Part shown: one piece after another, positions 4,541-59,700 of the stretch
How positions within the stretch are numbered: position 1 is the first letter of the stretch
Layout: the number at the start of each line of letters is the position of its first letter
NCBI GenBank assembly: GCA_022711395.1
Contig: JAKLFA010000002.1
Span: 387,864 to 451,863 of the forward strand
Direction of reading: 5' to 3'
Source of the DNA: Candidatus Omnitrophota bacterium
Lineage (GTDB): Bacteria; Omnitrophota; Gorgyraeia; Zapsychrales; JANLHA01
DNA length: 64,000 nt
The notes under the pieces: generated by a model
Told to the model about the DNA's origin: nothing
What the model saw: only the letters and a program-made list of their open reading frames with translations
Database searches by the model: none
Position numbers and translations under genes: made by a program

Positions 4541-5407
4541 TCACCGGCCGGGATGCGGGCCCTGCGCCCGTGTTTGACAGAACCAGCGGATCAATTCGCT
4601 GGAAATGGACCGCCGGGTCGGGACTTTGGGAAGGGCGTCCGCCTTGAACCATCCGGCCTCAACGATCTCCTCTCCGTCCACCTGAAGGTCCCCGCTTTGA
4701 TATTCCGCCGTAAAACCTATCATCAAACAATCCGGAAACGGCCAGGACTGGCTTTTAAAATATTGGATATTGCCCACCTCAATGCCGGCCTCTTCCAGGA
4801 TCTCGCGCCGCGCGCATTCTTCCAGGGACTCACCCGGCTCCAGAAACCCCGCCAAAACACTATACATCTGCGGGTCCGAATATTTCGAACTCCGCGCCAA
4901 AAGGATCTGATCGCCTTTCAGGACGGCCACGATCACTGCCGGTGAGATCCTCGGATAGCTGATCAAACCGCACGGTTCGCAAACTCTGGCATGCTCAGTG
5001 TTGAGCGCGGCCGTTTCACCGCCGCATCGTCCGCAAAAACGGAAATTCCGGTTCCAGTCCAGGATCTGCCTGGCATATCCGGCAAGCTCTGAAAGCGGGC
5101 GCTCCGCGTTCAAATAAACATCCCGCAAACCGGCCCATTCATATCCGTCGGAAACAGCCCGGCCGGCCGCGGCCGCGCAAAAACACGGCTTTTCATCGAG
5201 CGAACCGATCAAGCGCGTATCCGTCAAAGCAAGCCCCTTCGTCTCCCGCTCGGTCAAAAATGGGAACACGATGCCCCCGGTGTTTTTTTCCACCAGGAGC
5301 TCTTCGCCGCGAAAACAAAGGTAATACGCCCCTTCTGAGCAATGGGCCGGCTGAAGCGCGGATCGTTTGAATGTCATGAACGCGTTTTCCATGGGGACAT
5401 TATACAT
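4541..5407 (-). CDS. nudC: NADH pyrophosphatase NudC (NUDIX hydrolase with zinc ribbon)
   Basis: 288 aa. CGRCGG...CEPCG zinc ribbon followed by the Nudix box GFLEPGESLEECARREILEEAGIEV. Confidence 0.75.
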   Translation of the reverse strand: MYNVPMENAFMTFKRSALQPAHCSEGAYYLCFRGEELLVEKNTGGIVFPFLTERETKGLALTDTRLIGSLDEKPCFCAAAAGRAVSDGYEWAGLRDVYLNAERPLSELAGYARQILDWNRNFRFCGRCGGETAALNTEHARVCEPCGLISYPRISPAVIVAVLKGDQILLARSSKYSDPQMYSVLAGFLEPGESLEECARREILEEAGIEVGNIQYFKSQSWPFPDCLMIGFTAEYQSGDLQVDGEEIVEAGWFKADALPKVPTRRSISSELIRWFCQTRAQGPHPGR

Positions 5408-5486: not shown

Positions 5487-6638
5487 TTACAAAAGACCCA
5501 AACGGATCAAATATTGACGCAAACCTAAAGCAATAGCCCGGTTTTCCATCGGGCTAAAATGCTGATAATTCCTTACCGAAAACCGCTCTGTTCCCTGCTG
5601 AACAATACGGCACGTCCCAGGCAAAGATTCGCCATTGTGTTGGAGCTTATAAAATTCAGTATAGGGCAGCAGGGAAATCGTCGGAATTTGCCGCTCCCCT
5701 TCCCAGTAATTTAAGAAGGCCTTGATCTCAGGTAACAACTTCTTTTGCTCAACCTTATTATCCCGGATCGCATCAATATTCACGATCACCGGAACGGCCC
5801 CCATGTCCCTAATCGTGTCGATGATCTCATGTAAAATGGCTTTGGTGATCTTTTGTTTCTCAATGCGATAGCCCCCCAAGCGTTTTAAGACCTTGTTCTT
5901 CAAAATAATGAACAGGTCAACAACTTTTAAGCGCCAAAATTCTTTTTTAAACGTTTCCTCCGGGGATGGAACAGGGACGCCTTTCAGGACCAGCTCTTCA
6001 TTCTTAAGGATAAAATACGGCTTGGCATAATCCCGGAAACTTAACAGATTGCGGCTGTCATCCATGCTCAGATAACCGATCATGACAATGTCCGGATCGT
6101 ATTTGGCCCCTTCTTCCTTTAAATATAAAAGCATTTGATCGTGTCCATAGCCAGGCTCCCCCATGTTAACGACCTCCGTATCGGGAAGGAGCTGTTGCAA
6201 AAAATACGGATACGTTTCTCTGTCGCCGACATCAACTCCAAACGTGAAAGAATCCCCGATGATCAAAATGCGCTTTTTTCCGGGAGTGCGGGCGTAAGGA
6301 ATGTCTGTTGGGCCCCGGACCCCTTTGGAATTGATCCGGACGCCACGGCCGTTAAATTCATCGGGGTTGTTGAAATCAGGGATCGACTTCCATCCCAGCG
6401 TCGGATGATACTCGCTATAACTGGAATGATGCAGGATTTCTTTCCTCTGGGAGCTCACTTTTCCATCGACCCATGCCTGGCGCCATAAGGGGGAAACACG
6501 GCAAGAGTCCCAGTCCTCTGAGATCTTTCTGGAGAAACCGGGGATCTTAAAGGCAGCACGCGCGAGAATTTCCGTTGTTAAAAAAAGAAGACCGATCAGC
6601 ACCGCATGAAATATGTATTTCTTTTTAATTGTCATCAT
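5487..6638 (-). CDS. membrane-anchored SGNH/GDSL-type hydrolase family protein
   Basis: 383 aa. N-terminal transmembrane segment. RILIIGDSFTFG block resembles SGNH block I. Confidence 0.5.
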   Translation of the reverse strand: MMTIKKKYIFHAVLIGLLFLTTEILARAAFKIPGFSRKISEDWDSCRVSPLWRQAWVDGKVSSQRKEILHHSSYSEYHPTLGWKSIPDFNNPDEFNGRGVRINSKGVRGPTDIPYARTPGKKRILIIGDSFTFGVDVGDRETYPYFLQQLLPDTEVVNMGEPGYGHDQMLLYLKEEGAKYDPDIVMIGYLSMDDSRNLLSFRDYAKPYFILKNEELVLKGVPVPSPEETFKKEFWRLKVVDLFIILKNKVLKRLGGYRIEKQKITKAILHEIIDTIRDMGAVPVIVNIDAIRDNKVEQKKLLPEIKAFLNYWEGERQIPTISLLPYTEFYKLQHNGESLPGTCRIVQQGTERFSVRNYQHFSPMENRAIALGLRQYLIRLGLL

Positions 6639-7946: not shown

Positions 7947-8107
7947 TCGCATTGTGCCACTTTAAATGAAAAGAGCCCTCCGATAAGCGAAGCTTACAGG
8001 AGGGCCCTCACACGAACAATCATTTCTTTTTCTTTTTAGCTTTTTTCTTGTTAGCGACCTTATCCCCCATAGTTTTCACCCCCTTCCGCGTTATGTCCCT
8101 GATCCCA

Positions 8108-8539: not shown

Positions 8540-8902
8540 TTATCCAATGACTTCACAAATATCCATCACAAAAATGATGCCCTTACCCGGTTCTTTCAAC
8601 CTGCCGTGTTCCTCCAACAATTTGACGAGCTTCTTTCGATTGGCCTCCAGGGTCACTAGCAGTAAAATTTCTCTCAAGGGTCCGATCCGCAATCCCAGAA
8701 CACGTGCCCCCTCCTTTGCGCACAACCCTTTCCCGGATAATACCGTTGCCCCGAAAATGCCGGCTTCTTTAATGACCGGCAAGATCGTCTTTACTTTTCC
8801 CTTAGGAAAGATCGCCACAATCAGTTTGAACATCCCAAAATTTTTTTTCGTCATGACCTTGCCCCCATCTTGAATGATCACGGTACAACGCTTTAAGGAC
8901 AC
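8540..8902 (-). CDS. P-II-like (GlnB-fold) family protein
   Basis: About 104-120 aa. The layout mimics P-II (FKLIVAIFPKGK...GKGIIFVMDICEVIG). The likely start is the internal MTKKNF at about 8854. Confidence 0.6.
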   Translation of the reverse strand: MSLKRCTVIIQDGGKVMTKKNFGMFKLIVAIFPKGKVKTILPVIKEAGIFGATVLSGKGLCAKEGARVLGLRIGPLREILLLVTLEANRKKLVKLLEEHGRLKEPGKGIIFVMDICEVIG

Positions 8903-9261
8903 AATAATTCAGCAACCCTTTGCCGGACATATTCCATATCAAATGGACGGCTTATCCAGTCTTTCAGGCCTAAATCCATCAGCGCCTGTTTGCCCCGGAT
9001 ATCTGGGAATGCTGAAACCGCGATGATCGGTACACTTATGTTCCTTTTTCTGAGCTGCCTCATTAAACTTTCGCAAAACTCAACCGTCGTTGTGATGCCG
9101 ACGATGATCATATCCACCGGCGCCTGAAGGAGAGCATCCAGGATCTCCGAATGGTTGGACAAAGACATCGTGTGATAGCCGGATTTTTCCAGATTGTCCG
9201 TAAAACTATTTCCGGGATCATAGTATTTTTTAATGACCAAAATGGTCTGCCGACGTTCCAA
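8893..9261 (-). CDS. degenerate receiver-domain protein (pseudo-receiver)
   Basis: 122 aa with a CheY-like fold (ILVIKK...VDMIIVGITTT...IIAVSAF). The canonical acidic pocket and phospho-Asp context are atypical: DMIIVGI replaces the usual D at the expected spacing. Confidence 0.55.
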   Translation of the reverse strand: MERRQTILVIKKYYDPGNSFTDNLEKSGYHTMSLSNHSEILDALLQAPVDMIIVGITTTVEFCESLMRQLRKRNISVPIIAVSAFPDIRGKQALMDLGLKDWISRPFDMEYVRQRVAELLCP

Positions 9262-47336: not shown

Positions 47337-47966
47337 TCAGGAATTTGATTTCCGCAACCGCCCGCCTGCCAGCGAAAACGCCATGATAAACAATGACCAT
47401 GTCGCCGGCTCAGGGACCGCCATGCTTAACGGATAATCCGTCCTGCCTGGTGAGAACGCCTCCCCCAAAGACACCGTGACCTTCGCGTCATACCGCGGGC
47501 TAACACGGATAAGCGAAACATCCCTTCCGCCTTCCGCGCCGAAACGAAACTCATCGATCAGCGTCTTTTGCGGATCATAAAGCCGCGCGATATCACCGGT
47601 ATTGTTCAGGTTTAAGCCTCCGTTTGAAGCCTTATACCAGGATGGGGCCGCAAACAAAGCCGGCGAACCGCCAAAGACCACGACCGTAGACCAGGGCCCG
47701 ATAATGCTTCCCGCGCCAAAAACATGGCGTTCAGCCAGCGCGTCATGGATCGACCAGCCCACCAGGTCCACCTGGTCCTCCGACACATTATACAGCTCCA
47801 CAAATTCGTCACCAGAACTTGAAATGATGCCGTCCTGGTTAGCATCCCCTCCGATCGATGGTGGATCAGCCAGGACCTCACTGATCAAAACAAAACTTTC
47901 CGCCGGCGCCGCCATCAAAAACAATGCGGACACCGCCCACGCACAGACTCTCGCCCGTTTCAGCAT
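47337..47966 (-). CDS. secreted lamin-tail-domain (LTD) protein with PEP-CTERM anchor
   Basis: 209 aa. Signal peptide. LTD motifs (DEFVELYNVSEDQVDLVGWSI). C-terminal VPEPATWSLFIMAFSLAGGRLRKSNS. Confidence 0.7.
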   Translation of the reverse strand: MLKRARVCAWAVSALFLMAAPAESFVLISEVLADPPSIGGDANQDGIISSSGDEFVELYNVSEDQVDLVGWSIHDALAERHVFGAGSIIGPWSTVVVFGGSPALFAAPSWYKASNGGLNLNNTGDIARLYDPQKTLIDEFRFGAEGGRDVSLIRVSPRYDAKVTVSLGEAFSPGRTDYPLSMAVPEPATWSLFIMAFSLAGGRLRKSNS

Positions 47967-48065: not shown

Positions 48066-51000
48066 TCAGCTTTTGAACGGATCAAGCTTTTGGGCCGGGC
48101 CCATGGCACCGGCTGACTGCTGAGCTCCGCCGGCATCCGTTTCAGTGGCATCCATGCCCAGAAACGCCGGTATGCCCTGAACGGGAAGGATATTGATGAT
48201 CACCGGATAAAACCCGTCGATCTTCATATCATTAATCGGCTGCTGCGGCAAAGGCAAGGGGACGCCTTCTCCGTCACGCTTGATCTGAAGGTTCAGCGCA
48301 GCCGTGTTCAAATCGATACCACCGACCTTATCCGCCCCCGGCAGCACCGCGGCGTTGGTCTGGGTGGCGGCATTTTCAAAAACCGTCCTGACCGTTGCGG
48401 CAACCCGCTGAGGAGAAATAAGACTGCGGACAACCACCGTTCCGCCGTCGACCTGCTGCTCCGAAAAAGAAACCGTTCCCAGCAAGCCCTCCGCCAACTG
48501 GCCTTTGAGAGCCACCGGCAATGACCCCAGGACTTCCGAAGTCTCGATCCGGACTTCAACCTGCTGATGAAGCGCTTCACGGTATTGCTGTTCAGCCTGA
48601 CGTCTACGTTCCCCGAACCGGTCAGGATGGACCGTCCACTCTTCAGGATTCCGCGATCTGATCACGACCTTCTGATCAAAGTTTGAGACCATCCAGGCTG
48701 TTAAGTCCTGCGCGGAAAGGTCCAGAACCGCCGCGTTCGTTGCCGCAGGTGGAATGGATGCCGCGATCTCCGCTTCAACAAGAGAGCTAACAGCGCTGCT
48801 TTCCACTGTGTATGTATCCCCATTGACCTGGCCGACAAAGGTGACCGCCTCGACCAAACGCTGGATCAAATCCGTTTTTTGCTCAGATGACAACCCAAGA
48901 TCCTCTGCGGACATGATCTGCGCTTCAAGCTGGCTCTGGACTCCCTGTTTGAAACCCGCAAGGGCCCGTTCAACCGTTTCTTCGAACGCCGAAGCCGGCT
49001 CGCGCCACTGCGTAGGATCGGCCGAAGTCAGAACGGTCTTTTTGTCAAACGTCGCCACGACCCAGTCTCTCAATGCAGACGCGGCGGGGGTCAAAACCGC
49101 GGCATTGGTCGATGAAGACCCCGACGGAAGGATGCTGACCCATTCAGCCCCCAACTCCACTTTGGCTTTGTCTTCCAGCTGTTCCTGGGTCACGCCGGTC
49201 ATCAAAAGCACGATCCTTTTAAGCTGATCGTATTTCTCCTGCATGACCTGCTGCGAATCCGAAAATTTCCCGAACGCCTCCGCGTAGGCCTTGACCGCCG
49301 GCTCGGTTCCGGACGGGCGCAACAGGATCCAGCCGGTGTTTAAAACAAGCTTAACACCGTCTTTGGTAATGACATCGATGACCCAGTCACGGATCCCGGC
49401 GTCCTGCAAAAGCTGGTTCATTTCCTTGACGATCGAAAGCTCATCCCTGGTTTTTCCCATGGCGAGCTCCTCTTTGGTCTGGGCGATCTTTTTGTTGGTT
49501 TCAAGCTTTACAGCATCATTCTTGCCCCGCAATGTGAGCGTGCTGATCTGAAACCGCATATTAAGCGCTTCAAGGACTTTTTCCTTATATTGCTGCAATG
49601 ACATCCCGGTGCGGGTCACGATCCACAGTCCCATCAACCCGATGACCAGCCCGTCATCCCAGGACTTCATGAACGGGCCGACGCCGACGTGAGCACTCTC
49701 CTCGCCGGCGATCAAATACTGACGGCCCTGGCTGACGATCTTCTCAACAAACCATTTAAAACCGACCGCCTCTTCATCCACCGCTCCGGCGCCGAGGAAT
49801 TCAGCGATCGCATTGACCATGTTGCTGGTGGCGACGGTCTTTCCGATCTGGCCTTTAAGGCCGATGTCCTTGGCCAGAAAATAGGCGATCAATGCCATCA
49901 TGTCATTGGCACCGATGAACGCGCTGTCAAAATCAATGTTCCCGAAACGGTCCGCATCCCCGTCCTGCATCAGACCAAACGCCTTTCCTTGAAATCCGGA
50001 GACCAGCTTCCGGATCGTCTTATGGCTCCCGGGCGCTTCCGGGCGCGGCTGGCCGTCAACTTCCGTGAACCTCGCGTCCATGTTATTCGTATGGATCATC
50101 GTGAAAAACGGGCGTCCCGCGTCTTTGGCCAGTTCCTGAAACAATGCGCGAGCGTATTTCACCATCGTCCCCTGCATGGGGTCCTCATAGACATGAAAAT
50201 CCGGATTCGCTTTAATATAAGCAACGATATCCGCCCAGGCCCCGATCTTCTTCAGACCCGGGACCAGATACTCATGGACATAAATACGGACCGCTTCTTC
50301 TGCGGTCATCTCCACGATCAGCCCTCTCTTCTTGGCCGCTTCATAATCCATCACCGGGATCTCTTCGACGCTGTTGGCGGTCTTCTCAAGCTCGGTGGTC
50401 ACCGCTTTGGGGGCCGCCCCGCCGTGCGAGGGGGAATATTTGAACCCGTCATCTTCATAAGGGTTATGGCTGGCGGTCAGATTAACGACACCGCCGATCA
50501 TTTCATCGCTCTGAGCGATCACCGCCAGAACCGGCGTCGGAGTCGGCTCATTGATGATGATCGTTCTCACTCCCTGGGCCGCGTTGATCGATGCGATCAG
50601 CTTCGCCGAGGCATTGTTGCCTTCCCTGGGGTCATAACCAACCAGCATGGCCTTGCCGGGCTCTGCCTTCGCAGTGTATTTTGCGGCCGCGTAAGCGTCA
50701 CGCGGAACATTGATCTGATGAAAACCGGATGTGATCTTGCCGCGGTTGCCGCTCGTGCCGAAGACGATCGGCTGTTCTTGACCCGTGACAGGATCGGTCA
50801 AGACCGGCACTGAAATTTTTGTAATGATCGCGGAATTGACCGCGGGCGTATTCGCCGTTGCATCATCCACGTTCTCAAGAAGCTGCACAGGGACCTTATA
50901 CGTCGTTCCCTGTTCTTTAAGGCTTTCACGCAGGACCGCCGCGTTAGTCGCCGGCCGGCCGTCTGTTCCGTCCTTGATCACTTCGACCTTCACGCCCAGG

Positions 51001-52088
51001 GCCTGTTCACCCGCGAACGCCTTAAACAAACCACTGGCCGATGTCCCGCCTGAAAAATACCGCCTCGGGATCATCTCTCCGCTTGTCTCATCAATTTCTT
51101 CTTTAATATAGTCATAAGCGCCTTTTTTAAAGGCCTCCACATATTGTTCATAGATCCTTTGATTGACTGCCGGGTCTTTCAGGTCGATCCCCTTGACCTT
51201 GGCCTGGTCCACATACACCTGCGACAAAAGGGTCTGACGCAAATTCGCCTTATACCAGGCGGCCAGGATCATGGAATTGTAGACCTGGCGCAAATTCGCG
51301 AAATGTTTTCCCTCATTGACCTCCCGTTCGATCTCCGGGATCAGGACCTCTTTTAAGGCCTGGGTAAAGGCCTCGCCCTGCCCTTCCATGCCCGGGGCGG
51401 AGCCAACACTGGAAGAAGAACCTTCGCCCAGCGTCTTTTGAAGCGCCAAATAGTCCTCCTCAAGCATGACTTTCAAATGGCTTTTGACCACATAGACCGT
51501 TCCCTTATGTTCATAAACAACCGCCTCATCCGGAACGATCCAGACCTTGTGAAATGAATTGAGCGGAATCTCTGCGGCGCCGGCCTTTGCTTCGACCTTG
51601 CTGTAAATGTTCTTCCAAAAATCCTGACCCAATTCCTGCTCAGGATACATGAACGAAGCCGTCAGCTGTTTGAGGATATAATCCTGCGCCAGCAGGTCAC
51701 GGCCCATTTCCGTGGAACCAAGATCCCCCGGGATCATGCGGTCTTTTTCATGAGGGGACAAATTGACCCACAGGTCCTCTTCCGGAACGGTCAGCGAAAC
51801 TAGAAAATATTTGATCAGTTTTTGAGCCTCCGCCTTTAAGGCATCCCCTTCCATCCCCGTGTGGCCGCTGTCGATAATGAAATCAAACCCCAGCGGATTG
51901 ACCGGGTCCGGCGTCATGCCCTTGATCATGACCGGGACAAAACCGCTCGTTACCGAGAGCATCTCACCCGGCAATGACGGCATGATCTGCGCTCGGGCGA
52001 TATCCGGCGGACAGATAAAGCTGAACGTGAAGACCACAACGAGGACGGCAGATACAAAACGACGCAGGTGTTTTTGAGTCAAAACCAT
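48066..52088 (-). CDS. giant secreted multidomain protein containing a complete alpha-D-phosphohexomutase domain and tandem 'TNAAVL' domains
   Basis: 1340 aa. Signal peptide. Internal GTSGNRG (GTSGLRG-like), TASHNPYEDDGFKY (catalytic Ser loop), DGDADR (Mg loop) and GEESAH (sugar loop). Four segments begin with TNAAVL, and two of them are approximately 125-aa homologous C-terminal domains. Confidence 0.6.
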   Translation of the reverse strand: MVLTQKHLRRFVSAVLVVVFTFSFICPPDIARAQIMPSLPGEMLSVTSGFVPVMIKGMTPDPVNPLGFDFIIDSGHTGMEGDALKAEAQKLIKYFLVSLTVPEEDLWVNLSPHEKDRMIPGDLGSTEMGRDLLAQDYILKQLTASFMYPEQELGQDFWKNIYSKVEAKAGAAEIPLNSFHKVWIVPDEAVVYEHKGTVYVVKSHLKVMLEEDYLALQKTLGEGSSSSVGSAPGMEGQGEAFTQALKEVLIPEIEREVNEGKHFANLRQVYNSMILAAWYKANLRQTLLSQVYVDQAKVKGIDLKDPAVNQRIYEQYVEAFKKGAYDYIKEEIDETSGEMIPRRYFSGGTSASGLFKAFAGEQALGVKVEVIKDGTDGRPATNAAVLRESLKEQGTTYKVPVQLLENVDDATANTPAVNSAIITKISVPVLTDPVTGQEQPIVFGTSGNRGKITSGFHQINVPRDAYAAAKYTAKAEPGKAMLVGYDPREGNNASAKLIASINAAQGVRTIIINEPTPTPVLAVIAQSDEMIGGVVNLTASHNPYEDDGFKYSPSHGGAAPKAVTTELEKTANSVEEIPVMDYEAAKKRGLIVEMTAEEAVRIYVHEYLVPGLKKIGAWADIVAYIKANPDFHVYEDPMQGTMVKYARALFQELAKDAGRPFFTMIHTNNMDARFTEVDGQPRPEAPGSHKTIRKLVSGFQGKAFGLMQDGDADRFGNIDFDSAFIGANDMMALIAYFLAKDIGLKGQIGKTVATSNMVNAIAEFLGAGAVDEEAVGFKWFVEKIVSQGRQYLIAGEESAHVGVGPFMKSWDDGLVIGLMGLWIVTRTGMSLQQYKEKVLEALNMRFQISTLTLRGKNDAVKLETNKKIAQTKEELAMGKTRDELSIVKEMNQLLQDAGIRDWVIDVITKDGVKLVLNTGWILLRPSGTEPAVKAYAEAFGKFSDSQQVMQEKYDQLKRIVLLMTGVTQEQLEDKAKVELGAEWVSILPSGSSSTNAAVLTPAASALRDWVVATFDKKTVLTSADPTQWREPASAFEETVERALAGFKQGVQSQLEAQIMSAEDLGLSSEQKTDLIQRLVEAVTFVGQVNGDTYTVESSAVSSLVEAEIAASIPPAATNAAVLDLSAQDLTAWMVSNFDQKVVIRSRNPEEWTVHPDRFGERRRQAEQQYREALHQQVEVRIETSEVLGSLPVALKGQLAEGLLGTVSFSEQQVDGGTVVVRSLISPQRVAATVRTVFENAATQTNAAVLPGADKVGGIDLNTAALNLQIKRDGEGVPLPLPQQPINDMKIDGFYPVIINILPVQGIPAFLGMDATETDAGGAQQSAGAMGPAQKLDPFKS

Positions 52089-52327
52089 AGACCGGCTCCT
52101 TTTGAAACCATTTTTGGATGTTCAATCAATTATAAGGGGCGAGTTTTAACAGCTACAAATAAGACGGCACAAATACGACTTTTTAAAACGCCATGTGATA
52201 GGATTGTATAAGTATATATTATATAAGCCCGTTTTTGCAAATTTTTTAAATAAATTAGTTACCCTTGTGGTGTATGTATGCAACGCATTCAAAACCGCTT
52301 CGGGGTCCCTCTCAGCCACCTTTAACA

Positions 52328-52385
52328 GAATTCCGGAATTCCGGGAATTCCGGGAATTCCGTGTCCCCGGAATTCGGAATTCTCT
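52328..52385. repeat. array of GGAATTCC(G/C)-type units (left, inverted copy)
   Basis: gaattccggaattccgggaattccgggaattccgtgtccccggaattcggaattc. Contains cgtgtccccggaattc, the reverse complement of the unit at 53224-53311. Confidence 0.65.
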
Positions 52386-52465
52386 TGTCAACAGGGGAAC
52401 AGTTACTTTTTATGGGAATGAGATGGGATTAAAAAATTTAAACGCCTGGAGAAGGGCAACATTTT

Positions 52466-52741
52466 TTATTCAATATTGGACGAAATCAACCTTCCTCGCT
52501 TATCAAAATTAAACCGAAAAGTCTTGTCATCCTGGCGGTTGCGATAGACCCAGGATTCCCCGGAATCCGCTTCCACAATTTCATCCGGTTTTCCCCAATC
52601 AAATTTAACACGGGTTTGTGACGCTCCGGAGACCATGTATTGGCTGGTTTTCTGATAATCCGAAAACATCCGGCCTCCACCTGGAATAAGCCCGCAACTC
52701 ACTAGACAAAAACAACAAAAAATTAGTAACAGAATACGCAT
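52466..52741 (-). CDS. small lipoprotein (candidate orphan immunity protein)
   Basis: 91 aa. Lipobox LVSC. Low-GC gene. Confidence 0.5.
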   Translation of the reverse strand: MRILLLIFCCFCLVSCGLIPGGGRMFSDYQKTSQYMVSGASQTRVKFDWGKPDEIVEADSGESWVYRNRQDDKTFRFNFDKRGRLISSNIE

Positions 52742-52810
52742 ATCAAACCTCCCCGGCTAATGTATGGAACACTCTCAAACAAAACTTTCTCGATAACAAC
52801 TCCAGAAAAC

Positions 52811-53161
52811 CTAAAAAACATTTACTGCTTGAACGACTCCATCCTGAATATAGAACCAAACAGCTTTGGCAGGTTCTGAATGGAATTCTTTGTAAACGCC
52901 TTTAGAAAAATTATAATACCAGGACTCTTCATACTGTTCGCCATGAATCCAAGCATCAGGATCAATTGATCGTGGCTCTCCGAGATTAACCAATAAATGA
53001 TTTTTCGACTTCCCAACATATTCTTTCTCATAGGAATTACGGGCATCTTCAATCGCATTCAACCAATCCTGTTGATTCTGCATGTGATGCGACAAAACCC
53101 CGCACCCCGTCAAAACAAAACTGAAAAGCACCAAATAAAGCATTAAGACACATATTTTCAT
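52811..53161 (-). CDS. small lipoprotein (candidate orphan immunity protein, paralog)
   Basis: 116 aa. Lipobox LTGC. Shares a LGxP...E.WYY...GV core with its neighbours. Low GC. Confidence 0.5.
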   Translation of the reverse strand: MKICVLMLYLVLFSFVLTGCGVLSHHMQNQQDWLNAIEDARNSYEKEYVGKSKNHLLVNLGEPRSIDPDAWIHGEQYEESWYYNFSKGVYKEFHSEPAKAVWFYIQDGVVQAVNVF

Positions 53162-53223
53162 TGAGCACCCTTGTCAAAATGGATATCTATGGCTTTTTAT
53201 CCCTAAGGGGAGAGAATTCCGGG

Positions 53224-53311
53224 GACACGTACCTAATTCCTTCAATTCCGGGCGAATTCCGGGGACACGTACCTAATTCCTTCAATTCCGGGGGAATTCC
53301 GCTAATAGACA
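53224..53311. repeat. 2.2 tandem copies of a 40-bp unit gaattccggggacacgtacctaattccttcaattccggg (right copy)
   Basis: Direct tandem repeat. In inverted orientation relative to the array at 52328-52385. Confidence 0.65.
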
Positions 53312-53350
53312 AATTAAATTTTCTAATACGGCCAGAATGATCTTTATAAA

Positions 53351-53725
53351 CTATAGAAACAAAACATCTTCAATTACGCCCTGGTTAAGATAAAAAACAT
53401 ACGCCCAAGAATTTTGGTTTAGCAATGGAATCCCTCTGGAATTGTAATAATACCATTCTTCTTCATAAAGCTTCCCGCCACGATAAACATTTTTTTTGAT
53501 CTCCGTTGGCTGGCCCAAATCCCGCAATAGCGCCGCGGAATCTTTGCCTATATAGCCTCTCAACAATTCATCGACTTTCTGTCTGGCCTCTGCATCACGC
53601 GTGCCGTCATGCGAATCTCGTAAAAGCGCCGCGCGCAAAAAATTTTGTTCAGCAGCACAACCCCACACAAAAACCAGGATCATAAAAATTAATAATTCGA
53701 TTTTTCTGTTCTGAGAATCCAACAT
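53351..53725 (-). CDS. small lipoprotein immediately downstream of the RHS toxin gene (candidate cognate immunity protein)
   Basis: 124 aa. Signal and lipobox (VWGC). GQPTEI...EEEWYYYN...GVIEDV core shared with the two downstream paralogs. Confidence 0.5.
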   Translation of the reverse strand: MLDSQNRKIELLIFMILVFVWGCAAEQNFLRAALLRDSHDGTRDAEARQKVDELLRGYIGKDSAALLRDLGQPTEIKKNVYRGGKLYEEEWYYYNSRGIPLLNQNSWAYVFYLNQGVIEDVLFL

Positions 53726-53731
53726 GCTTCC

Positions 53732-56700
53732 TCAATATGGCCAATAATGATTCTGAATTCCAACCGGAAGAACCGCCGTTCCAACAGCCCCGCCCAAAAA
53801 ATGTTTTGGGTTTAAATTGGGCGCTAAAAACCCTGAAAAATCCCACATCCCAGTCTTATATAAAACATGTCGTGAATTTAGTCCACCAATAGCGCCTGAA
53901 ACAAAAGTCCTGATCTGACTTACTTGCGATGACCCAACCGTTAAACTGCTTAAAACATTCCGCTGATCTCGTAAACCAAGATTCAATGCGACATTGGAAG
54001 CGATAATCCCTCCCTGACTGAAACCCGCCAAGTGTATGCCTTTTAACCCGATCAGACGATTAGAAATTTGGCGTGATACAGAACTCGTGAATGTGAATTT
54101 TCCAAGCCCAGCCTCAATCAAATCCGCAATCGGTCCGGAGGACGGATTATATGCCAAAACTTCTGCGCCATTTCTCCATGCCTGCTCAAGCGCCCCCTCC
54201 AACCGTCCCTGTGTTTCCAAGGGCGTTGTGATTCCATTAATAAAAACATGCTCCCCACTTTGAACGAAATCACCCGTGCTGTCTTTTCGAACAAATCGAA
54301 ACCGATTCTCATACGCCCAATCTTTAATCCCTTTCAGGACATTCGCGCCGGCATACAACCCCGCCGTTCCCATGGCCGCGTAATTGAGCGCCTGCTGGCC
54401 ATCAGACCAGCCGGCCGCGCCGGCCACCTGCCCGCCCAGCGATAGCCCGCCGGAAATCCTCGTCAGCCCCCACCAGTAGCCCTGCTTTTCGATCGACGAA
54501 AACGGCGTTCCCAATGCCGCGCCGGACAGAAACCCCTGCAGCCCTCCCCAGAACGCGCCTTTCCAAGCCGATTGATCATTATTATACGCCATGACCCCGC
54601 CGGAGATCCCGCCGATCAACGCGCCGATGATCGCGGCGATGAACCAGCCGTGCCCGTCCGGGTCTACCAGCACCACTGGATTATTGCGAACATAGGCGTA
54701 ACGATTGAACGCCTGCGGATCGCCCGCGCTGGGCACCACGGTATCCGCGGAAATAAACCGCCCCAAATCGGGATCATAATATCTGGATTTATAATAATAT
54801 AACCCCGTTTCATCATCAAGCCTTTGTCCAGTAAAATACGCGCTGCCATTTTCGGCCCTGCCGAACCGCTCATGGCGGCTGAAACTCCCGAATGGCTGAT
54901 ATTCGATCAGCTCACTGACCGAACCCGCATGATCAGTGACAAGATTCGCCGAACCCAAATGGTCCGGATGGATGAACGCGACCTCCCCGTTTTTCACAGA
55001 CGCGATCCTGCGCTCACCGGCAAAAATGTGCTTTGTCAGATCAACATTCGTTTTTTCAAAAAGCTGCCCGACAAAGTGCGTGACCAGGTCCTGTTCTCCG
55101 CCGTTGCCTTCCAGAAGCTCAGGAAACGACATGGTCGAAACCCCGCCGCCGGATAACGCCCCATAGACGATCTTTTTGACCCGCCCGCCATCCCCGTCAT
55201 AAGCGAAACGCACCTCTTGCTCTCCATTACGGAAAACCTGCCTGAGCCTTCCTTCCGCATCAAATTCAAAACTGCTGACCACGCCGGAACGTTCTTTGCG
55301 GATCATATTGCCGTTGGCATCATACTGGAAAACCGTTCCATTCCCCAGCGACGTCACGGCATGCGGGCCTGCCGCTGCGCCGCCAACACGCGAGCCGCTT
55401 TCCGCATACCGATACGATACGCCGCCCTTTTCAAGAATATTGCCGACCCGGTCATAACCATATGTCTGCGTCCCATAAGTCGCGTCATGGCTGGCCAGAA
55501 CCAAACGGTTGAGATGGTCATATTCAAAATACTGCGTGGCGTGCCTCACCCCATCACGGATCACGACCATGTTTCCCACAGCGTCATACTCATAAAACAG
55601 ATCCTGAAGAACTTTACCGTCCGCATCCGCCGTAATGACCCGCGTAAGGCGAAAGTTCAAGGGATCATATTCATAGATCGTGCTCACTCCATTTCCATAA
55701 AGAATTCTTTCGATCTGGCCCAGGGCCGTGTATTGAATGTCAGAAATATACACCTTGGGCTCTTCCATCCTCATGCCGGCGACAACTTGGATTTCGATCA
55801 TCTTTGAAACTGCCTCATCAGGATCTTTCACTTCCACAGGGATCGTATAATCTCCCTGCTGCACGGCCGTCGGTGACCATGATAAACGTCCTTCAAGACG
55901 GCCTTCTGAGGAGGAGACGATCTTAAAATCACAACCCAGCGGAAGGTCCCCCGCCTCCGGACGCAAAAACTCCAACCGATCTCCATCCTCATCCGTCGCG
56001 ATGACGGAAAGATCCAGCGGCGTTCCGTTGAGAACGGTAGCCCCGGTTATGGCAACCACAGGCTTTTGGTTGGGGGAACGGGTCAAATATTGATAATCAA
56101 AATATTTCCATCCCAAAGACGTGCGCGACCAAAGCCTGACATACAGCGGCCGGCCCGTTCTGGGCACCGATGCTGTCACAGAAGTCGCCAAATCCATGTT
56201 CCGGTTCAAAATATCAGCGCCCCCCTGCTGCGCGCCCAGATAGATCCAATACTGCAAAACACCCTCCCCCTTATCCCACTGAAAACCAGCCTGATCCTGA
56301 GAAATCAATGTGCCCGGGGCCGGTGATATCATCTTCGCCGGAACGATCGTCTGATTCCCTGTGGTTGAGAACGTGTAATCCTTAAATTCCCACCGCCCTT
56401 CCGACAGATAGGACCAAAGCCGAACATGCAACGATGCACCATTGATGGGGACATTAACAGAAACCGTCCTCACTCCATTATTGGGGAAATATTTCACATA
56501 GAGATCAGCGGCCCCGGGGGAGCTACCGATGTAAAGATAATATCCGCTCACTCGGACCCCCGGGCTCCAGGATATCTGCAGCGGAGAAGACGAGACAACC
56601 GATCCCGGAACCGGAGATGAGATTTCCGCTGGGGCCGATGCCGCCCCCAAAGGAATGCTCTGATACTCATAATCCTTATACTTCCATCCTTGATAGGCGA

Positions 56701-59700
56701 TATAGCTCCACAAACGGAAATAAACCGGCCCGCCTTTAAGCTGAACATCCGAAAGGTCCAGCCGGCTCCCATAAAGATACGCCGAATAGATGTCGCTTCC
56801 TCCCCTGGTAGATCCGATATACAAATAATAATGTGAAACATTCAGACCGGGATCCCAACTGATCGACAGAGGCAGCGATGAGATCGTGGAGCCGGGCTGC
56901 GGAGAAATGATCGACGCCTCACGGTAAGTTTCCTGCGCATGTGCCTCTTTGACCCCGAACAGGCATGACGCCATCCTTCCCACCCATCGCCAAAACTCTC
57001 TGGAGGATGACAGCCAGCCGGAGGATGCGGCAGCATCATCAAACAATTCGGGGTCATTGGCCACACCATCCAGTTGGCCAGCCTCGTTAAAATGATAATA
57101 CACCGCCGTGCCATCCGGATAAATCACCCCGATAAGATTCCCCATCGAATCATAGATCCGCTGAATCTGATATGGCTGACCATCGATCGTTTTTTGAGAA
57201 CGGACTTCACGCCCGAATCGATCATACTGAAACTCTGTCCAGTCCCCGTCTCCCATGGGCCCATATTCCACAAGTCCAAGCCGCCCCTGAGAATAAGGCA
57301 GATCCTGCCGGTCGTAGGTGTAAACCACATCGATCTCATCCCCGTCCGTTTTATTCACCAGCCGGTTGAGCGCGTCATAGGCAAAATCCACCCGCCGACC
57401 CTGCGCATCAACCTGCCATTTTAGATTTCCGTTATTGTCATATCCATATTCCCAGCGGCCCATATCCGGGTCGTCCATCACGGTCTTACGGCCAAGCTTG
57501 TCATAGGCGATCACGGTCGAATTATTTTGAGCGTCCCTAACGCTTAAAAGCCGTCCCAGGCCGTCATATTCATATCGCGTTAGCGCGTAAAGCTCATAAT
57601 TTTTCTGAGGATAGCGATGGAACCTCCCATCCGCGCCCGCATAATCCTCAATTCTCACAACACGCCCCAGCGCGTCCGAATAGGAAATTTTTTTATGGCC
57701 ATTCGCGTCAATTTCAGAGACCACAGACTCCGCCTTCCTAGGCAGAAGAGCGTAACCCCAGCTTTGACGGGTTCCATCGAAATTGTACTGCTCAATGGGG
57801 CGGTCACGCTCATCATACTCATAGCGTGCGTGCGCGAACTCCTCATTGATCTGATCAAGAACGCCCAGTTCCGATGAAACATCACGAGGATGAAACTCTT
57901 TTTCAACACGTCCTAACCCATCGCGCGTTTTTTGCCCGGAAAGGATATACCGCCCTGGTTTTCCGCTTTGGGTCTTTGACAAAATAGGCGTCCCCAGTCC
58001 ATCAAAGAACCGCACCGAATCAATGGTCTGGGCCTGACCGGATTGCCGCCGGAGCGAATGAAAAACCGCCGTGTGATCAGACCGAAACTGATACGCGTAG
58101 GCTTCCGTAGGAACGGCAATAGAATCATCAGGCCCTGCCACCTTTAACAGTCGCCCTAAACTGTCATAACTATATCGGACCCGCGCCCCATTCGCGTCCG
58201 TTTCAGCAGCCAGTGACCCAGCGGGCCCCCAGGCGCCGTCATCATTTTCAAAACCATTCTCACCGACCCCGAAGTATTCCTTTTTGGAAAACTGCCCTAG
58301 CGCGTTGATCGCCTTAACGGGAAGCATATGATAACGCCCATCAAATTCCAGCCGGCTGCGGTTTCCCTCCGGATCGGTCTCCGCTACCAGATTTCCATAG
58401 GAATCATAGTCATACTTGACCGTTTGCAACTTGACTGAAATATTGTTCGGATCAAGAATGTTTTTCTGGGTCAACATGCCTCTGGACGGAAGCGCGTTGC
58501 TGTAATTCGCGCCATCATAGAGATATTCCTCCCTCGACTCATATCCAAATCCGCTTTGTCGTTTTTGCCGGGTAAGATTCACGATCCAAACATCATCGGA
58601 ATAATTTCCTGCGACCTGGGTTTCCTGCTGCAGCGAATACTTGGAATTGTCGATCTCATTGCTGTAGCCTTTTAGGTCTTGCGCCCCCATGAACCATCGA
58701 AAGCTCTGATACGCGGTTCCATATTGGGCATTAACCGTGTATGTATTCCATGTCTTTAGTTCGATCCCCTCGATCCCATCGATGCCATAGACCCGATCCC
58801 TTTCCCAAGTGAGGCACGGAAGGCGCACCGGAATTCGCTCATCCGAGAACAGCGGCTTCACTTCCCAGGTGCTCAATTTTTCCCCTACCCGCCGGCCATC
58901 AGGCTGATAAGACGTCTGGCTCGCCGCCCTTCCTCTTAAATAATAATCATCCTGAAGGAAGATCGTTTCCGTGAACCGGCCGGCCGGATCCGTTACACGC
59001 ACCTTCCGAAAACCATAAAACTCACGGTCCTGCGGCTTCCACAAACCGCCCTCATAAGAATATTTCAGCATCAATGCGTGGTCACGGCTGTTGGAGGTCT
59101 CCACGGATGAGACCAGCGGGATCACAAAAGGCAAATACGTGTTGTTATACGCTGTTGACGGAACATATGAAATACGGGTCTTGCCACCGATCGTGTTATC
59201 AACTCCGGTCAAAAGATCTCCGGGAATCCCGTTTGAATACGCGAACTCCTCATTACCGAATAAATTATACGCAACAAAATCCACGATCCCGTCCCCATTG
59301 AAATCCGCGCTTTGAAGCTGCGTGTCCGCGCCGCGCAAGTGGAACAAAAATGGCAGGTCATGAATCTCTTTAGTAAAATCCTCCGCCGTTGAATAACGGA
59401 AATGCGCCGCACCGACGTCCGGATCAAAATACCCCAGATCCGTCATCCCATCACCGTTCACGTCAGCGGCTAGCATTTGCTTCTTAGCGCCAAAATTCAG
59501 GATTTCCGCGGCTTTAATAAATTTCGGCGCGAGCTCTCCCTTATTTAAATATACTTCCCAACGCCCATTCGATGGGTCAAACGAGCCCAGATCAGTCAGC
59601 CCGTCTCCGTTGAAATCCGCCGCAAACGCCGTGGTTCCAGAAACCCCAACCTCAGAAACCACTTCGATCGGCTCAAACAGCATGTTTCTGTTCAAGGCAA

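What the first reader, a model, noticed from the sequence alone, without database searches (positions are those of the whole stretch)
52328..53311. Immunity-like lipoprotein cassette bounded by inverted arrays of GGAATTCC-type repeats
Two of the three paralogous small lipoprotein genes downstream of the RHS toxin lie on an approximately 900-bp AT-rich segment. Its ends are repeat arrays in inverted orientation. The left array (52328-52385) is a GGAATTCCG run containing cgtgtccccggaattc. The right array (53224-53311) is 2.2 copies of a 40-bp unit containing its reverse complement, gaattccggggacacg. Inverted repeats framing orphan immunity genes suggest a recombination- or transposition-competent cassette, such as a MITE-like element or an invertible or exchangeable module.
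Basis: seen in the sequence. Interest (0 to 1): 0.55.

Follow-up and report, generated by a model that had tools for sequence, protein, structure and literature searches.

The report
Transposase-linked repeats in toxin-gene tail
The two inverted repeat arrays are real, but they are stray copies of a widespread repeat that normally flanks a small IS200-like "TIRYT" transposase gene, lodged between immunity-type genes behind an RHS toxin gene, and there is no sign that the two lipoprotein genes between them form a mobile or invertible cassette.

Summary
A 16/17-nt core, GAATTCCGGGGACACG, occurs only three times in the 64-kb window: once on the minus strand in the left GGAATTCC array and twice in the right 40-bp x 2.2 array. 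The arrays flank lipoprotein genes lipo2 and lipo3 behind an RHS toxin gene of a Candidatus Omnitrophota MAG.

The repeat is not private to this locus. Exact-pattern scans found it in 63 genome and 38 metagenome loci from many phyla, with a shared consensus of about 26 nt (GAATTCCGGGGACAC-N-ATACTTAATT). It flanks, as an inward-facing inverted pair, a roughly 225-aa Y1 HUH transposase gene (Pfam Y1_Tnp). This is the published TIRYT / Group-1 RAYT / TnpA-Y1 subclass 2.1 family, whose inverted repeats carry GGGGWSAS.

Most copies sit beside unrelated housekeeping genes. In the window the arrays face outward, the reverse of the family's own element geometry. Eleven independent metagenome assemblies (L001-L006, L108-L112) carry the identical locus with no inversion or excision; only the 40-bp unit varies (1.2 or 2.2 copies).

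Verdict: a new member of a known repeat kind, not a mobile cassette.

One lead is worth following. These elements recur at module boundaries of RHS toxin/immunity islands in several phyla.

The parts
52328..52385 (-). Left array. Read on the minus strand it holds one full core unit, GAATTCCGGGGACACG (52375 to 52360), flanked by five or six truncated GGAATTCC(C/G) sub-repeats. It has no ATAC..TAATT extension. It lies 81 nt past the lipo3 stop, near the end of the low-GC RHS tail.
   Evidence: It folds as a long hairpin on the mRNA strand (-42.4 kcal/mol, z=-2.7).
53214..53301 (+). Right array: 2.2 copies of a 40-bp unit. Each full unit begins with the 25-nt repeat GAATTCCGGGGACACGTACCTAATT (53214-53238 and 53254-53278), followed by CCTTCAATTCCGGG(C/G). 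The third, partial copy is GAATTCCG. The array sits in the 189-nt spacer between lipo1 and lipo2.
   Evidence: The copy number is polymorphic: 2.2 copies in 6 of the 11 other assemblies and in the window, and 1.2 copies in 5. Its 22-mer is identical to the left inverted repeat of a complete element in Omnitrophica WOR_2 (L118).
52811..53161 (-). lipo2: a 116-aa lipoprotein (lipobox LTGC), an immunity-type gene.
   Evidence: Homologues P0004 and P0005 lie directly downstream of a homologous toxin domain.
52466..52741 (-). lipo3: a 91-aa lipoprotein (lipobox LVSC), only weakly related to lipo2.
   Evidence: Weak GWxTD_dom hit below the Pfam cut-off.
53351..53725 (-). lipo1: a 124-aa lipoprotein, paralogue of lipo2, starting 6 nt after the RHS stop. 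It is the likely cognate immunity gene.
   Evidence: Relative to L115/L116, lipo1 plus the right array form an extra segment of about 540 nt between the toxin and lipo2.
53732..61663 (-). RHS/Tc-type polymorphic toxin of 2643 aa. Its variable C-terminal domain (about 53735-54640) follows the DPDGHGW core end and carries a GFSQGG nucleophile-elbow-like motif.
   Evidence: Pfam RHS_repeat, SpvB, TcdB_toxin_midN and FG-GAP. The hydrolase resemblance is weak: PDB 4f21 at E=0.93 and Palm_thioest at E=0.1.
52050..54150 (.). Low-GC tract (0.38-0.44 against 0.50-0.60 in the flanks). It covers the toxin catalytic part, all three lipoprotein genes and both arrays, and represents the variable tail of the RHS island.

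Best explanation
The two arrays are clustered solo copies of the terminal inverted repeat of the TIRYT family. This family is also called Group-1 RAYT or TnpA-Y1 subclass 2.1. Its members are small elements built around an IS200-like Y1 HUH transposase. The window's copies sit in two non-coding spacers in the variable 3' tail of an RHS toxin/immunity island in an Omnitrophota chromosome.

In a complete element (a 'TIRtron') a repeat of about 22-26 nt, (GAA)TTCCGGGGACAC-N-(A)TACYTAATT, lies 20-45 nt upstream of the transposase start. Its inverted copy overlaps or follows the stop codon, so both point inward. Extra truncated GAATTCCGGGGACA or GGAATTCC sub-repeats often pile up on the outer side.

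Inferred steps:
- The transposase recognises this repeat and cuts and rejoins single-stranded DNA, as shown biochemically for the related E. coli TnpA-REP.
- Solo and clustered copies are left behind by abortive or partial events, by loss of the transposase gene and by replication slippage. The 1.2 versus 2.2 copy polymorphism shows that the right array is still unstable in natural populations.

The lipoprotein genes between the arrays are ordinary RHS-tail immunity-type genes. lipo1 is probably the cognate immunity gene and lipo2 an additional or orphan paralogue. They lie between two repeat clusters rather than inside a mobile unit.
For: 1. Family. A genome-collection scan for the core plus AATTCC found 63 loci against about 2 expected. 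The window-specific 22-mer found 38 metagenome loci with GC 0.34-0.63, none from the window's organism. Flanks outside the searched pattern share the consensus gGAATTCCGGGGACACgAtAct.a.tt across 177 instances.
2. Transposase link. 23 of the 101 loci fetched by DNA motif alone encode a 218-232-aa protein next to the motif. It hits Pfam Y1_Tnp at 35.6 bits (cut-off 23). Its best NCBIfam hit is REP_Tyr_transpos and its best PDB hit is 4ER8, TnpA-REP. NHVH and RYVExNP motifs are invariant.
3. Independent check. In four loci fetched by protein rather than by motif, the motif flanks the gene in inward orientation in all four.
4. Literature. Subclass 2.1 (median 238 aa, NHVH) corresponds to TIRYT, whose inverted repeats share GGGGWSAS; the window has GGGGACAC (PMC6006769). 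Such repeat families are moderately abundant and occur as singles, dimers or clusters (PMC3733652). For Group 1 RAYTs the most frequent flanking 16-mer occurs about 12 times per replicon (PMC5581495).
5. Dispersal. Among 248 neighbouring ORFs, Y1_Tnp was the most frequent family (13 members; no other exceeded 2), and the rest are diverse, mostly housekeeping genes.
6. Geometry. 14 of the 15 repeat pairs that enclose a TIRYT gene point inward ('> gene <'); the other reads '>>'. Outward '< >' pairs, as in the window, never enclose one and are simply the space between elements.
7. Population data. Eleven assemblies carry an identical locus apart from the 40-bp copy number.
8. Host. NCBI names the proteins as Candidatus Omnitrophota. 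An Omnitrophica WOR_2 element carries the identical 22-mer.
Against: - No TIRYT gene and no further repeat copy exist in the 64-kb window. Dispersal and a cognate transposase in this particular genome are therefore not shown.
- The NCBIfam RAYT hit is below its equivalog cut-off (66 against 80 bits).
- No biochemistry exists for any TIRYT, so the cut-and-rejoin step is inferred from E. coli TnpA-REP.
- The left array holds only the core without the ATAC..TAATT extension, so it could be a more degenerate or independently expanded derivative.
- Short-read assemblies could miss a minority inverted or excised form.
Confidence: 0.8

Rival explanations
1. One reading: lipo2-lipo3 is a discrete mobile, invertible or exchangeable cassette (MITE-like or shufflon-like) whose ends are the two inverted arrays.
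For: An exact 16/17-nt inverted core frames two small immunity-type genes. The repeat family is transposase-associated. The right array is unstable.
Against: - The arrays point outward, the opposite of every complete element of the family.
- Eleven assemblies show one orientation and no empty site.
- The segment is 828 bp of coding DNA, not a miniature non-coding element.
- The low-GC tract is not bounded by the arrays.
- No recombinase or transposase family was listed among the Pfam hits for the window's larger ORFs.
- Compared with related loci, the extra piece is lipo1 plus the right array, not lipo2-lipo3.
Confidence: 0.06
2. Active-role model, which does not exclude the best explanation. 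TIRYT elements and their solo repeats are preferentially recruited to RHS islands. There they act as portable homology or cleavage sites that truncate rhs genes and shuffle or capture C-terminal toxin/immunity modules. On this view the window's arrays are scars of such events.
For: - RHS fragments lie within the fetched flanks of 5 of the 101 motif-fetched loci (L021, L036, L037, L040, L045).
- L118 (Omnitrophica WOR_2) has an RHS gene, three small ORFs and then a complete element carrying the window's exact 22-mer.
- L138, chosen only for its contig length, has two orphan RHS fragments with immunity-like ORFs, a solo repeat at the start of the second fragment and a complete element at the island's end.
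- RHS-repeat coding sequence resumes 0-40 nt from the outer repeat end in L021, L036 and L045, and runs straight into the repeat in L037.
- Overall, 5 of 28 TIRYT-bearing loci have an adjacent RHS fragment. The binomial p is 2e-5 to 0.012 for assumed backgrounds of 1.25-5%.
Against: - Most repeat copies and 4 of 5 independently sampled TIRYT genes are nowhere near RHS genes.
- The background rate was assumed, not measured.
- Three of the loci are alphaproteobacterial and may not be independent.
- Variable RHS tails tolerate insertions of many elements, so passive accumulation explains the pattern equally well.
- No RHS remnant adjoins the window's arrays.
Confidence: 0.2
3. The arrays are host regulatory RNA or DNA structures, such as transcription terminators, mRNA-stabilising hairpins or protein-binding sites for the immunity genes, as proposed for REP sequences.
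For: The left array folds into a stem of about 20 bp on the mRNA strand downstream of lipo3 (-42.4 kcal/mol, z=-2.7, with 1 of 200 shuffles folding as well). REPs in other bacteria are known to act this way (general knowledge; abstract of PMC3733652).
Against: - The right array folds no better than shuffles (z=+1.4 and +0.8).
- There is no T-tract, and terminator-like and promoter-like hits are at or below the shuffle expectation.
- No Rfam family matches.
- The same sequence flanks transposase genes in many phyla, which a locus-specific regulatory role does not explain.
Confidence: 0.1
4. Artefact: concatenated EcoRI-linker-like GGAATTCC sequence, or an assembly chimera.
For: GGAATTCC is the classic EcoRI linker core, and the period-9 run looks synthetic.
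Against: The identical sequence appears in eleven assemblies from different projects and assemblers. The same repeat with the same extensions occurs in more than 100 unrelated loci, including a cultured isolate genome, Enterovirga sp..
Confidence: 0.01

Closest known systems
TIRtron / TIRYT repeats (Di Nocera et al. 2013, PMC3733652), also known as Group 1 RAYT (Bertels et al. 2017, PMC5581495) and TnpA-Y1 subclass 2.1 (Quentin et al. 2018, PMC6006769)
   Same: - The GGGGWSAS motif is present as GGGGACAC.
- In other genomes the same repeat flanks a roughly 225-aa Y1 HUH protein carrying NHVH and Y..NP motifs, as an inverted pair at short fixed distances.
- The repeats occur as singles, dimers and clusters at moderate copy number.
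- The phylogenetic distribution is wide and patchy.
   Different: - The window holds only solo clusters, with no transposase gene in 64 kb.
- Tandem expansion of a 40-bp unit and of GGAATTCC sub-repeats is, as far as I could read, not described in those papers.
- Conservation of a consensus of about 26 nt, including an identical 22-mer, across phyla goes beyond the published 8-nt consensus.
- The placement in RHS tails is not described in those papers.
Canonical REP / BIME / REPIN elements with Group 2/3 RAYTs (E. coli, Pseudomonas)
   Same: Short intergenic repeats tied to a Y1 HUH protein that they flank in inverted orientation. They occur clustered in alternating orientations, can form hairpins, and vary in copy number between strains.
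   Different: The unit has no GT[AG]G tag and is not itself an extended palindrome. The two arrays are 838 nt apart with genes between them, so they are not a REPIN doublet. The repeat sequence is shared across phyla instead of being lineage-specific.
Rhs-island accessory elements: orphan rhs-CT/immunity modules and the H-rpt (ISAs1-type) elements of E. coli Rhs loci (from general knowledge, not re-read here)
   Same: A mobile-element-derived sequence sits in the variable, low-GC tail downstream of the rhs core, among extra immunity-type genes.
   Different: The element family is different (Y1 HUH rather than DDE). In the window only its repeats are present, and no orphan toxin fragment accompanies lipo2 and lipo3.
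MITEs, integron attC cassettes and invertase-driven shufflons
   Same: Inverted repeats bracket small genes.
   Different: - No target-site duplication is evident in the flanking sequence.
- The repeat orientation is outward relative to the parent element.
- No integrase or invertase gene is nearby.
- No alternative orientation or empty site was seen in 11 assemblies.

Membership tests
TIRYT-associated inverted-repeat family (Group 1 RAYT / TnpA-Y1 subclass 2.1) | The repeat carries the GGGGWSAS motif. | tested here: met
   GGGGACAC is present in all three core copies. The consensus is quoted from PMC3733652 and PMC6006769.
TIRYT-associated inverted-repeat family (Group 1 RAYT / TnpA-Y1 subclass 2.1) | The same repeat flanks, as an inverted pair, a Y1 HUH gene of about 220-240 aa with NHVH and Y..NP motifs. 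| tested here: met
   Met in other genomes. 23 of the 101 motif-fetched loci encode the protein. 14 of the 15 repeat pairs enclosing it face inward, as do all four protein-fetched loci. Pfam Y1_Tnp is above its cut-off and the motifs are invariant. The identical 22-mer forms the left repeat of the Omnitrophica element in L118.
TIRYT-associated inverted-repeat family (Group 1 RAYT / TnpA-Y1 subclass 2.1) | A cognate TIRYT gene is present in the same genome. | not testable with these tools
   There is no homologue in the 64-kb window (tblastn). The rest of the 516-kb contig and of the MAG could not be read.
TIRYT-associated inverted-repeat family (Group 1 RAYT / TnpA-Y1 subclass 2.1) | Several dispersed copies occur in the same genome. 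| tested here: inconclusive
   Only this locus carries the repeat within 64 kb. At about 12 copies per replicon (PMC5581495), 64 kb would be expected to hold zero or one site.
TIRYT-associated inverted-repeat family (Group 1 RAYT / TnpA-Y1 subclass 2.1) | Copies are organised as singles, dimers or clusters. | tested here: met
   The window has two clusters. The cluster-size census in other loci gave 142 singles, 37 doublets and 14 larger clusters.
Canonical REP / REPIN (Group 2/3 RAYT) | A 5' GT[AG]G tetranucleotide at the foot of an imperfect palindrome of 20-40 nt. | tested here: not met
   The units contain no GTAG or GTGG tag. The 25-nt unit is not an extended palindrome; only GGAATTCC and CCGG are self-complementary. 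The criterion comes from PMC6006769.
Canonical REP / REPIN (Group 2/3 RAYT) | A REPIN doublet: two inverted REPs separated by a short spacer that form one long hairpin. | tested here: not met
   The arms are 838-876 nt apart with two genes between them. Short inward doublets of this family do exist elsewhere (L007, L014, L025, L039, L065, L066).
MITE | A small non-coding element bounded by the parent transposon's inverted repeats in the parent's orientation, with a target-site duplication. | tested here: not met
   The interval is 828 bp and encodes two proteins. The repeat orientation is outward relative to complete elements. No flanking direct repeat is seen in the sequence.
Invertible segment / shufflon | Both orientations are present in populations, and a site-specific recombinase is encoded nearby. 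| tested here: not met
   Eleven assemblies show one orientation. No recombinase family appears among the Pfam hits listed for the window's ORFs, although only the top 25 families were listed for 1-35 kb. Minority forms in the reads could not be tested.
RHS toxin / immunity island (context) | An RHS-repeat protein with a core-end motif and a variable C-terminal domain, followed by a small cognate immunity gene. | tested here: met
   Pfam RHS_repeat, SpvB and TcdB_midN. The DPDGHGW core end is followed by a domain of about 300 aa. lipo1 starts 6 nt after the stop. lipo2 homologues follow homologous toxin domains in L115-L117. Immunity function itself was not tested.

The most novel reading that the evidence does not exclude
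TIRYT (Group-1 RAYT) elements are not randomly scattered. They have a functional affinity for RHS polymorphic-toxin islands. They insert into or next to rhs core-coding DNA, and their repeats mark the boundaries of orphan toxin/immunity modules. Examples are the window, L118, L138, L021, L036, L045, L037, L040 and possibly L115. A domesticated single-strand DNA transposase would then help to truncate, capture or reshuffle toxin/immunity modules. This would give the large and so far function-less Group-1 RAYT family a biological role, and RHS diversification a dedicated enzyme.
Probability: 0.15. Interest if true: 0.7.

Novelty: new member of a known kind. Interest (0 to 1): 0.35.

Why it matters
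For this locus, the result removes a tempting but unsupported reading. The immunity genes are not on a private mobile or invertible cassette, so the inverted repeats should not be annotated as cassette ends.

More generally, three points stand out.

1. A repeat consensus of about 26 nt, including an identical 22-mer, is shared by TIRYT elements from Omnitrophota, Planctomycetota, Desulfobacterota, Alphaproteobacteria, Aminicenantes and others. This is far more conservation than the published 8-nt GGGGWSAS motif. It gives a simple DNA probe for the largest and least understood RAYT group.
2. The 1.2 versus 2.2 copy polymorphism among otherwise identical environmental genomes shows that such arrays are still turning over.
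3. The recurrent placement of these elements at module boundaries of RHS islands, if confirmed by a proper census, would link two fields that have not been connected in the literature I could search: Y1 HUH 'domesticated' transposases and polymorphic-toxin diversification.

Tried and rejected
- **Rfam.** A scan of 51900-53800 at E up to 10 gave only sub-threshold microRNA-hairpin noise on the palindromic left array.
- **Promoter and terminator scan.** Nothing above the shuffle expectation.
- **Literature search for the sequence itself** (CCGGGGACAC / GTGTCCCCGG). Only unrelated primer hits.
- **EcoRI-linker or assembly artefact.** Rejected because the sequence recurs in eleven assemblies and in more than 100 unrelated loci.
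- **Integron attC, CRISPR and Tn7/Tn402-like TGT-ended binding-site arrays.** These were considered from the sequence look. I dropped them once the neighbouring gene proved to be a Y1_Tnp protein.
- **Apparent alternative gene content in JGI assemblies** (110-aa and 67-aa ORFs). This briefly suggested an inverted or replaced cassette. The DNA is 100% identical and only the called start codons differ.
- **Profile search for lipo1/lipo2 relatives.** It returned only 5 clusters. That was enough for synteny but too few for a family study.
- **Plasmid collection as an independent, annotated sample of TIRYT contexts.** Only 10 distant hits, so it was not used.
- **Search for RHS remnants next to the window's arrays.** None found.
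- **The ORF start after the lipo2 homologue in L115.** It aligns to the TIRYT N-terminus only weakly (hhalign E=0.004, probability 8%), so I treat it as suggestive only.
- **The toxin domain.** It could not be assigned to a family. There are only weak alpha/beta-hydrolase hints.
Full report
**1. What is in the sequence**

All genes of the locus are on the minus strand.
- A 2643-aa RHS/Tc-type toxin lies at 53732-61663. Pfam finds RHS_repeat, SpvB, TcdB_toxin_midN and FG-GAP.
- Three small lipoprotein genes follow: lipo1 (53351-53725, 124 aa), lipo2 (52811-53161, 116 aa) and lipo3 (52466-52741, 91 aa).
- Next comes a 1340-aa protein with a phosphoglucomutase core (48066-52088).

Tandem Repeats Finder reports a 40-bp unit x2.2 at 53214-53301, between lipo1 and lipo2. 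It also reports a GAATTCCGG x3.9 run plus CGGAATT x2.1 at 52328-52382, downstream of lipo3.

The shared core GAATTCCGGGGACACG occurs only at 52360-52375 (-), 53214-53229 (+) and 53254-53269 (+) in the whole 64 kb, even allowing two mismatches. None of 100 shuffles reached three matches. The arms are 100% complementary over 16-17 nt.

- The right array's coordinates were 10 bp off.
- The low-GC tract (52050-54150) is wider than the interval between the arrays. It includes lipo1 and the catalytic part of the toxin domain.
- Only lipo1 and lipo2 are clear paralogues (E=1e-12). lipo3 is marginal (E=0.005).

**2. The same locus in other samples**

Exact-protein look-ups retrieved eleven other assemblies of this locus, L001-L006 and L108-L112 (L113 and L114 re-fetch two of the same contigs). 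They come from ENA/NCBI SPAdes and MEGAHIT assemblies and from JGI assemblies.
- All are 100% identical to the window across the tail, apart from one feature. Five of them (L002, L004, L005, L006, L111) have one 40-bp unit fewer, giving 1.2 instead of 2.2 copies.
- Both alleles occur within a single JGI project series, so this is a real length polymorphism rather than an assembler effect.
- No assembly shows the 52.4-53.2 kb interval inverted, excised or replaced.
- The JGI gene calls of 110 and 67 aa briefly looked like different genes. They are the same DNA with different start codons.
- NCBI names the proteins as Candidatus Omnitrophota bacterium.

**3. The repeat is a widespread family**

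A scan of 185,579 species-representative genomes for GAATTCCGGGGACACG, a gap of 0-30 nt, then AATTCC returned 63 loci. About 2 would be expected for uniform base composition.

The loci come from Aminicenantes, Desulfobacterota, Sphingomonadales and other Alphaproteobacteria, Planctomycetota, Omnitrophota, Nitrospirota, Chloroflexota, Riflebacteria, one archaeal MAG and a cultured Enterovirga strain.

Sequence outside the searched pattern is conserved too. The unfiltered consensus of 177 instances is gGAATTCCGGGGACACgAtAct.a.tt. Many sites carry several tandem GAATTCCGGGGACA units, with only the last one bearing the ATACTTAATT extension.

The window's own variant, TTCCGGGGACACGTACCTAATT, was found exactly in 38 metagenome contigs with GC from 0.34 to 0.63. 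None is related to the window by blastn. About 0.1 chance matches are expected per terabase.

No Rfam family matches.

**4. What the repeat belongs to**

In loci with several sites, the gene between an inward-facing pair begins MARLPRIVIPGVAHHVTQRGNRR.
- tblastn with this protein hits 23 of the 101 loci that had been fetched by DNA motif alone, always right next to the motif.
- The protein scores 35.6 bits against Pfam Y1_Tnp, 'Transposase IS200 like', whose cut-off is 23.
- Its best NCBIfam match is REP-associated tyrosine transposase, at 66 bits and below the 80-bit equivalog cut-off.
- Its only PDB match is 4ER8, E. coli TnpA-REP.
- An alignment of 16 full-length copies has an invariant HuH motif (NHVH) and Y motif (RYVExNP).
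- A profile search saturates at 8000 clusters with E <= 1e-20, all carrying PF01797.

Quentin et al. 2018 define TnpA-Y1 subclass 2.1 by a median length of 238 aa, an NHVH motif and a C-terminal HTH-like tail. They equate it with Bertels' Group 1 and with the TIRYTs of Di Nocera et al. 2013, whose terminal inverted repeats share GGGG[AT][CG]A[CG] (PMC6006769; PMC3733652). The window's GGGGACAC fits that consensus.

Di Nocera et al. also report that such repeat families are moderately abundant and organised in dimers or clusters. Bertels et al. report about 12 replicon-wide occurrences of the most frequent flanking 16-mer for Group 1 (PMC5581495).

As an independent check, I examined four TIRYT loci fetched by protein rather than by motif (L138, L139, L149, L150). 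All four have the motif 37-46 nt upstream of the start codon and its inverted copy at or just after the stop.

The Omnitrophica WOR_2 element in L118 has the window's exact 22-mer as its left repeat.

**5. Geometry and dispersal**

In the census of adjacent repeat clusters, 14 of the 15 pairs that enclose a TIRYT gene read '> gene <', with the ATAC..TAATT end facing the gene; the other reads '>>'. Twenty-five '< ... >' pairs, none enclosing a TIRYT gene, simply lie between elements. The window reads '<' (52360) lipo3 lipo2 '>>' (53214, 53254). By the family's own rule, lipo2 and lipo3 are therefore outside any element, not inside one.

I also took a Pfam census of the 248 ORFs nearest to repeat sites in the 101 loci. 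Y1_Tnp was the most frequent family (13 members; no other exceeded 2). The remaining neighbours are mostly housekeeping genes such as RecA, PEPCK, LpxB, Mur ligase, a penicillin-binding protein, FliM, HisG and UvrC.

Within this genome only 64 kb could be examined. That stretch holds no further copy and no TIRYT gene, so dispersal in the source genome remains untested.

**6. The lipoprotein genes**

The lipo1/lipo2 family is tiny, with 5 clusters found. Two relatives are 52-53% identical to lipo2. Each lies directly after an ORF that is 71% (L115, L116) or 56% (L117) identical to the last 190-350 residues of the window's RHS protein. lipo2-type proteins are thus the immediate partners of this toxin domain elsewhere. 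That supports an immunity role and an 'additional or orphan immunity' status for lipo2 here.

At the DNA level, relative to L115/L116 the window has about 540 extra nucleotides between the toxin and lipo2. These are lipo1 plus the right array, not lipo2-lipo3.

The toxin domain has a GFSQGG motif and only weak alpha/beta-hydrolase hints. A lipase-like periplasmic target would fit lipoprotein immunity partners, but this is inference.

**7. Other functions considered**

The left array forms a strong hairpin on the mRNA strand (-42.4 kcal/mol, z=-2.7). The right array does not (z=+1.4). Terminator-like and promoter-like matches are at chance level. A secondary role of the left array in transcript 3'-end stability is possible but unsupported.

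**8. A lead: RHS islands**

RHS-repeat fragments turned up unexpectedly often near this family.
- Five of the 101 motif-fetched loci contain them (L021, L036, L037, L040, L045).
- In L021, L036 and L045 a complete element directly abuts a 5'-truncated RHS fragment. The RHS reading frame resumes 0-40 nt from the outer end of the repeat.
- In L037 an RHS fragment runs straight into the repeat.
- In L040 the repeat follows an RHS gene and its small downstream ORF.
- The Omnitrophica element L118 lies behind an RHS gene and three small ORFs, the same layout as the window.
- L138 was picked only because its contig was long. It shows an integrase gene and two orphan RHS fragments with immunity-like ORFs. 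A solo repeat sits at the start of the second fragment and a complete element at the end of the island.
- Four other independently sampled TIRYT genes have no RHS neighbour.

Overall, 5 of 28 TIRYT-bearing loci have an adjacent RHS fragment. The binomial p ranges from 2e-5 to 0.012 for assumed backgrounds of 1.25-5%. The background is assumed and some loci may share ancestry, so I treat this as suggestive.

I found no paper in the searchable library that links Rhs orphan modules with tyrosine transposases.

Passive accumulation in insertion-tolerant toxin tails, as with H-rpt elements in E. coli Rhs loci (general knowledge), is the default explanation. An active role in truncating or reshuffling modules is the most novel reading that the evidence does not exclude.

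**9. Verdict**

The arrays are clustered solo copies of the TIRYT / Group-1 RAYT inverted-repeat family, in the variable tail of an RHS island of an Omnitrophota genome.

Shown:
- family membership by sequence;
- the association with the Y1 HUH gene in other genomes;
- the outward geometry;
- the copy-number polymorphism;
- the absence of inversion or excision in eleven assemblies;
- the immunity-type synteny of lipo2.

Inferred:
- that a TIRYT protein made or still acts on these copies;
- the single-strand cut-and-rejoin chemistry, by analogy with TnpA-REP;
- the immunity functions.

The cassette interpretation is not supported. The finding is a new member of a known kind, with moderate-to-low interest, raised somewhat by the cross-phylum conservation of the repeat and by the RHS association.

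Noticed in passing
L018:1-3300 (uncultured Stakelama sp., CAZFTL010000003.1): Three tandem TIRYT gene copies, 92-100% identical to one another and each with its own repeats. This is unusual for a family described as mostly single-copy.
   Followed up: partly
L054:1684-4733 (Sphingomonadales MAG GL80_UP_concoct_13): Eight tandem repeat units at 4573-4730 and three inverted units at 1684-1727 flank an 847-aa ORF in the same outward arrangement as in the window. The same MAG has further copies on two other contigs (L028, L038).
   Followed up: no
L115:949-1134: Directly after the lipo2 homologue there is an AAAAAGGTGCC x4 array, then GGGGACAG, which fits GGGGWSAS. An ORF then starts MGRIPRTFLLYGGCYAHVISRSIAKQKIF and aligns weakly to the TIRYT N-terminus (E=0.004, probability 8%). 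The contig ends there. This may be a second, different TIRYT-type element behind the same toxin/immunity pair.
   Followed up: partly
L138:2014-10372: The locus holds an integrase gene and two orphan RHS fragments with C-terminal toxin domains, each followed by small immunity-like ORFs (TM, TPR or lipoprotein-like). A degenerate solo repeat sits at 6524 and a complete TIRYT element at the distal end.
   Followed up: partly
L138:9621-9660, L149 and L150 upstream of TIRYT starts: A conserved (C)TATTGACAAGAAG follows the repeat and precedes the TIRYT start codon. It contains a perfect TTGACA and may be the element's own -35 box.
   Followed up: no
L150, about 8850-8970: A tRNA-like sequence (GGTTCAAATCC T-arm followed by CCA) lies immediately downstream of the TIRYT element.
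   Followed up: no
window 62822-63223 (-): A 134-aa protein lies about 1.2 kb upstream of the RHS gene. It matches the 23S rRNA intervening-sequence protein family (E=1.7e-27) and, below the Pfam cut-off, bAvd-like. This is the four-helix-bundle family that includes accessory proteins of diversity-generating retroelements.
   Followed up: no
window 48066-52088 (-): A 1340-aa secreted-looking protein has a complete phosphoglucomutase/phosphomannomutase core (residues about 440-940). It carries a long N-terminal extension and C-terminal modules of about 110 aa, each beginning TNAAVL. This is an unusual architecture.
   Followed up: no
window 52554-52565 (-), inside lipo3: TTCCGGGGAATC is a near-copy of the repeat core with 2 mismatches, inside the lipo3 coding sequence. 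It is compatible with chance (9 such matches in the window against 6.8 expected).
   Followed up: yes
window 47337-47966 (-): A Lamin-tail-domain protein with a PEP-CTERM sorting signal lies just downstream of the PGM-like gene.
   Followed up: no
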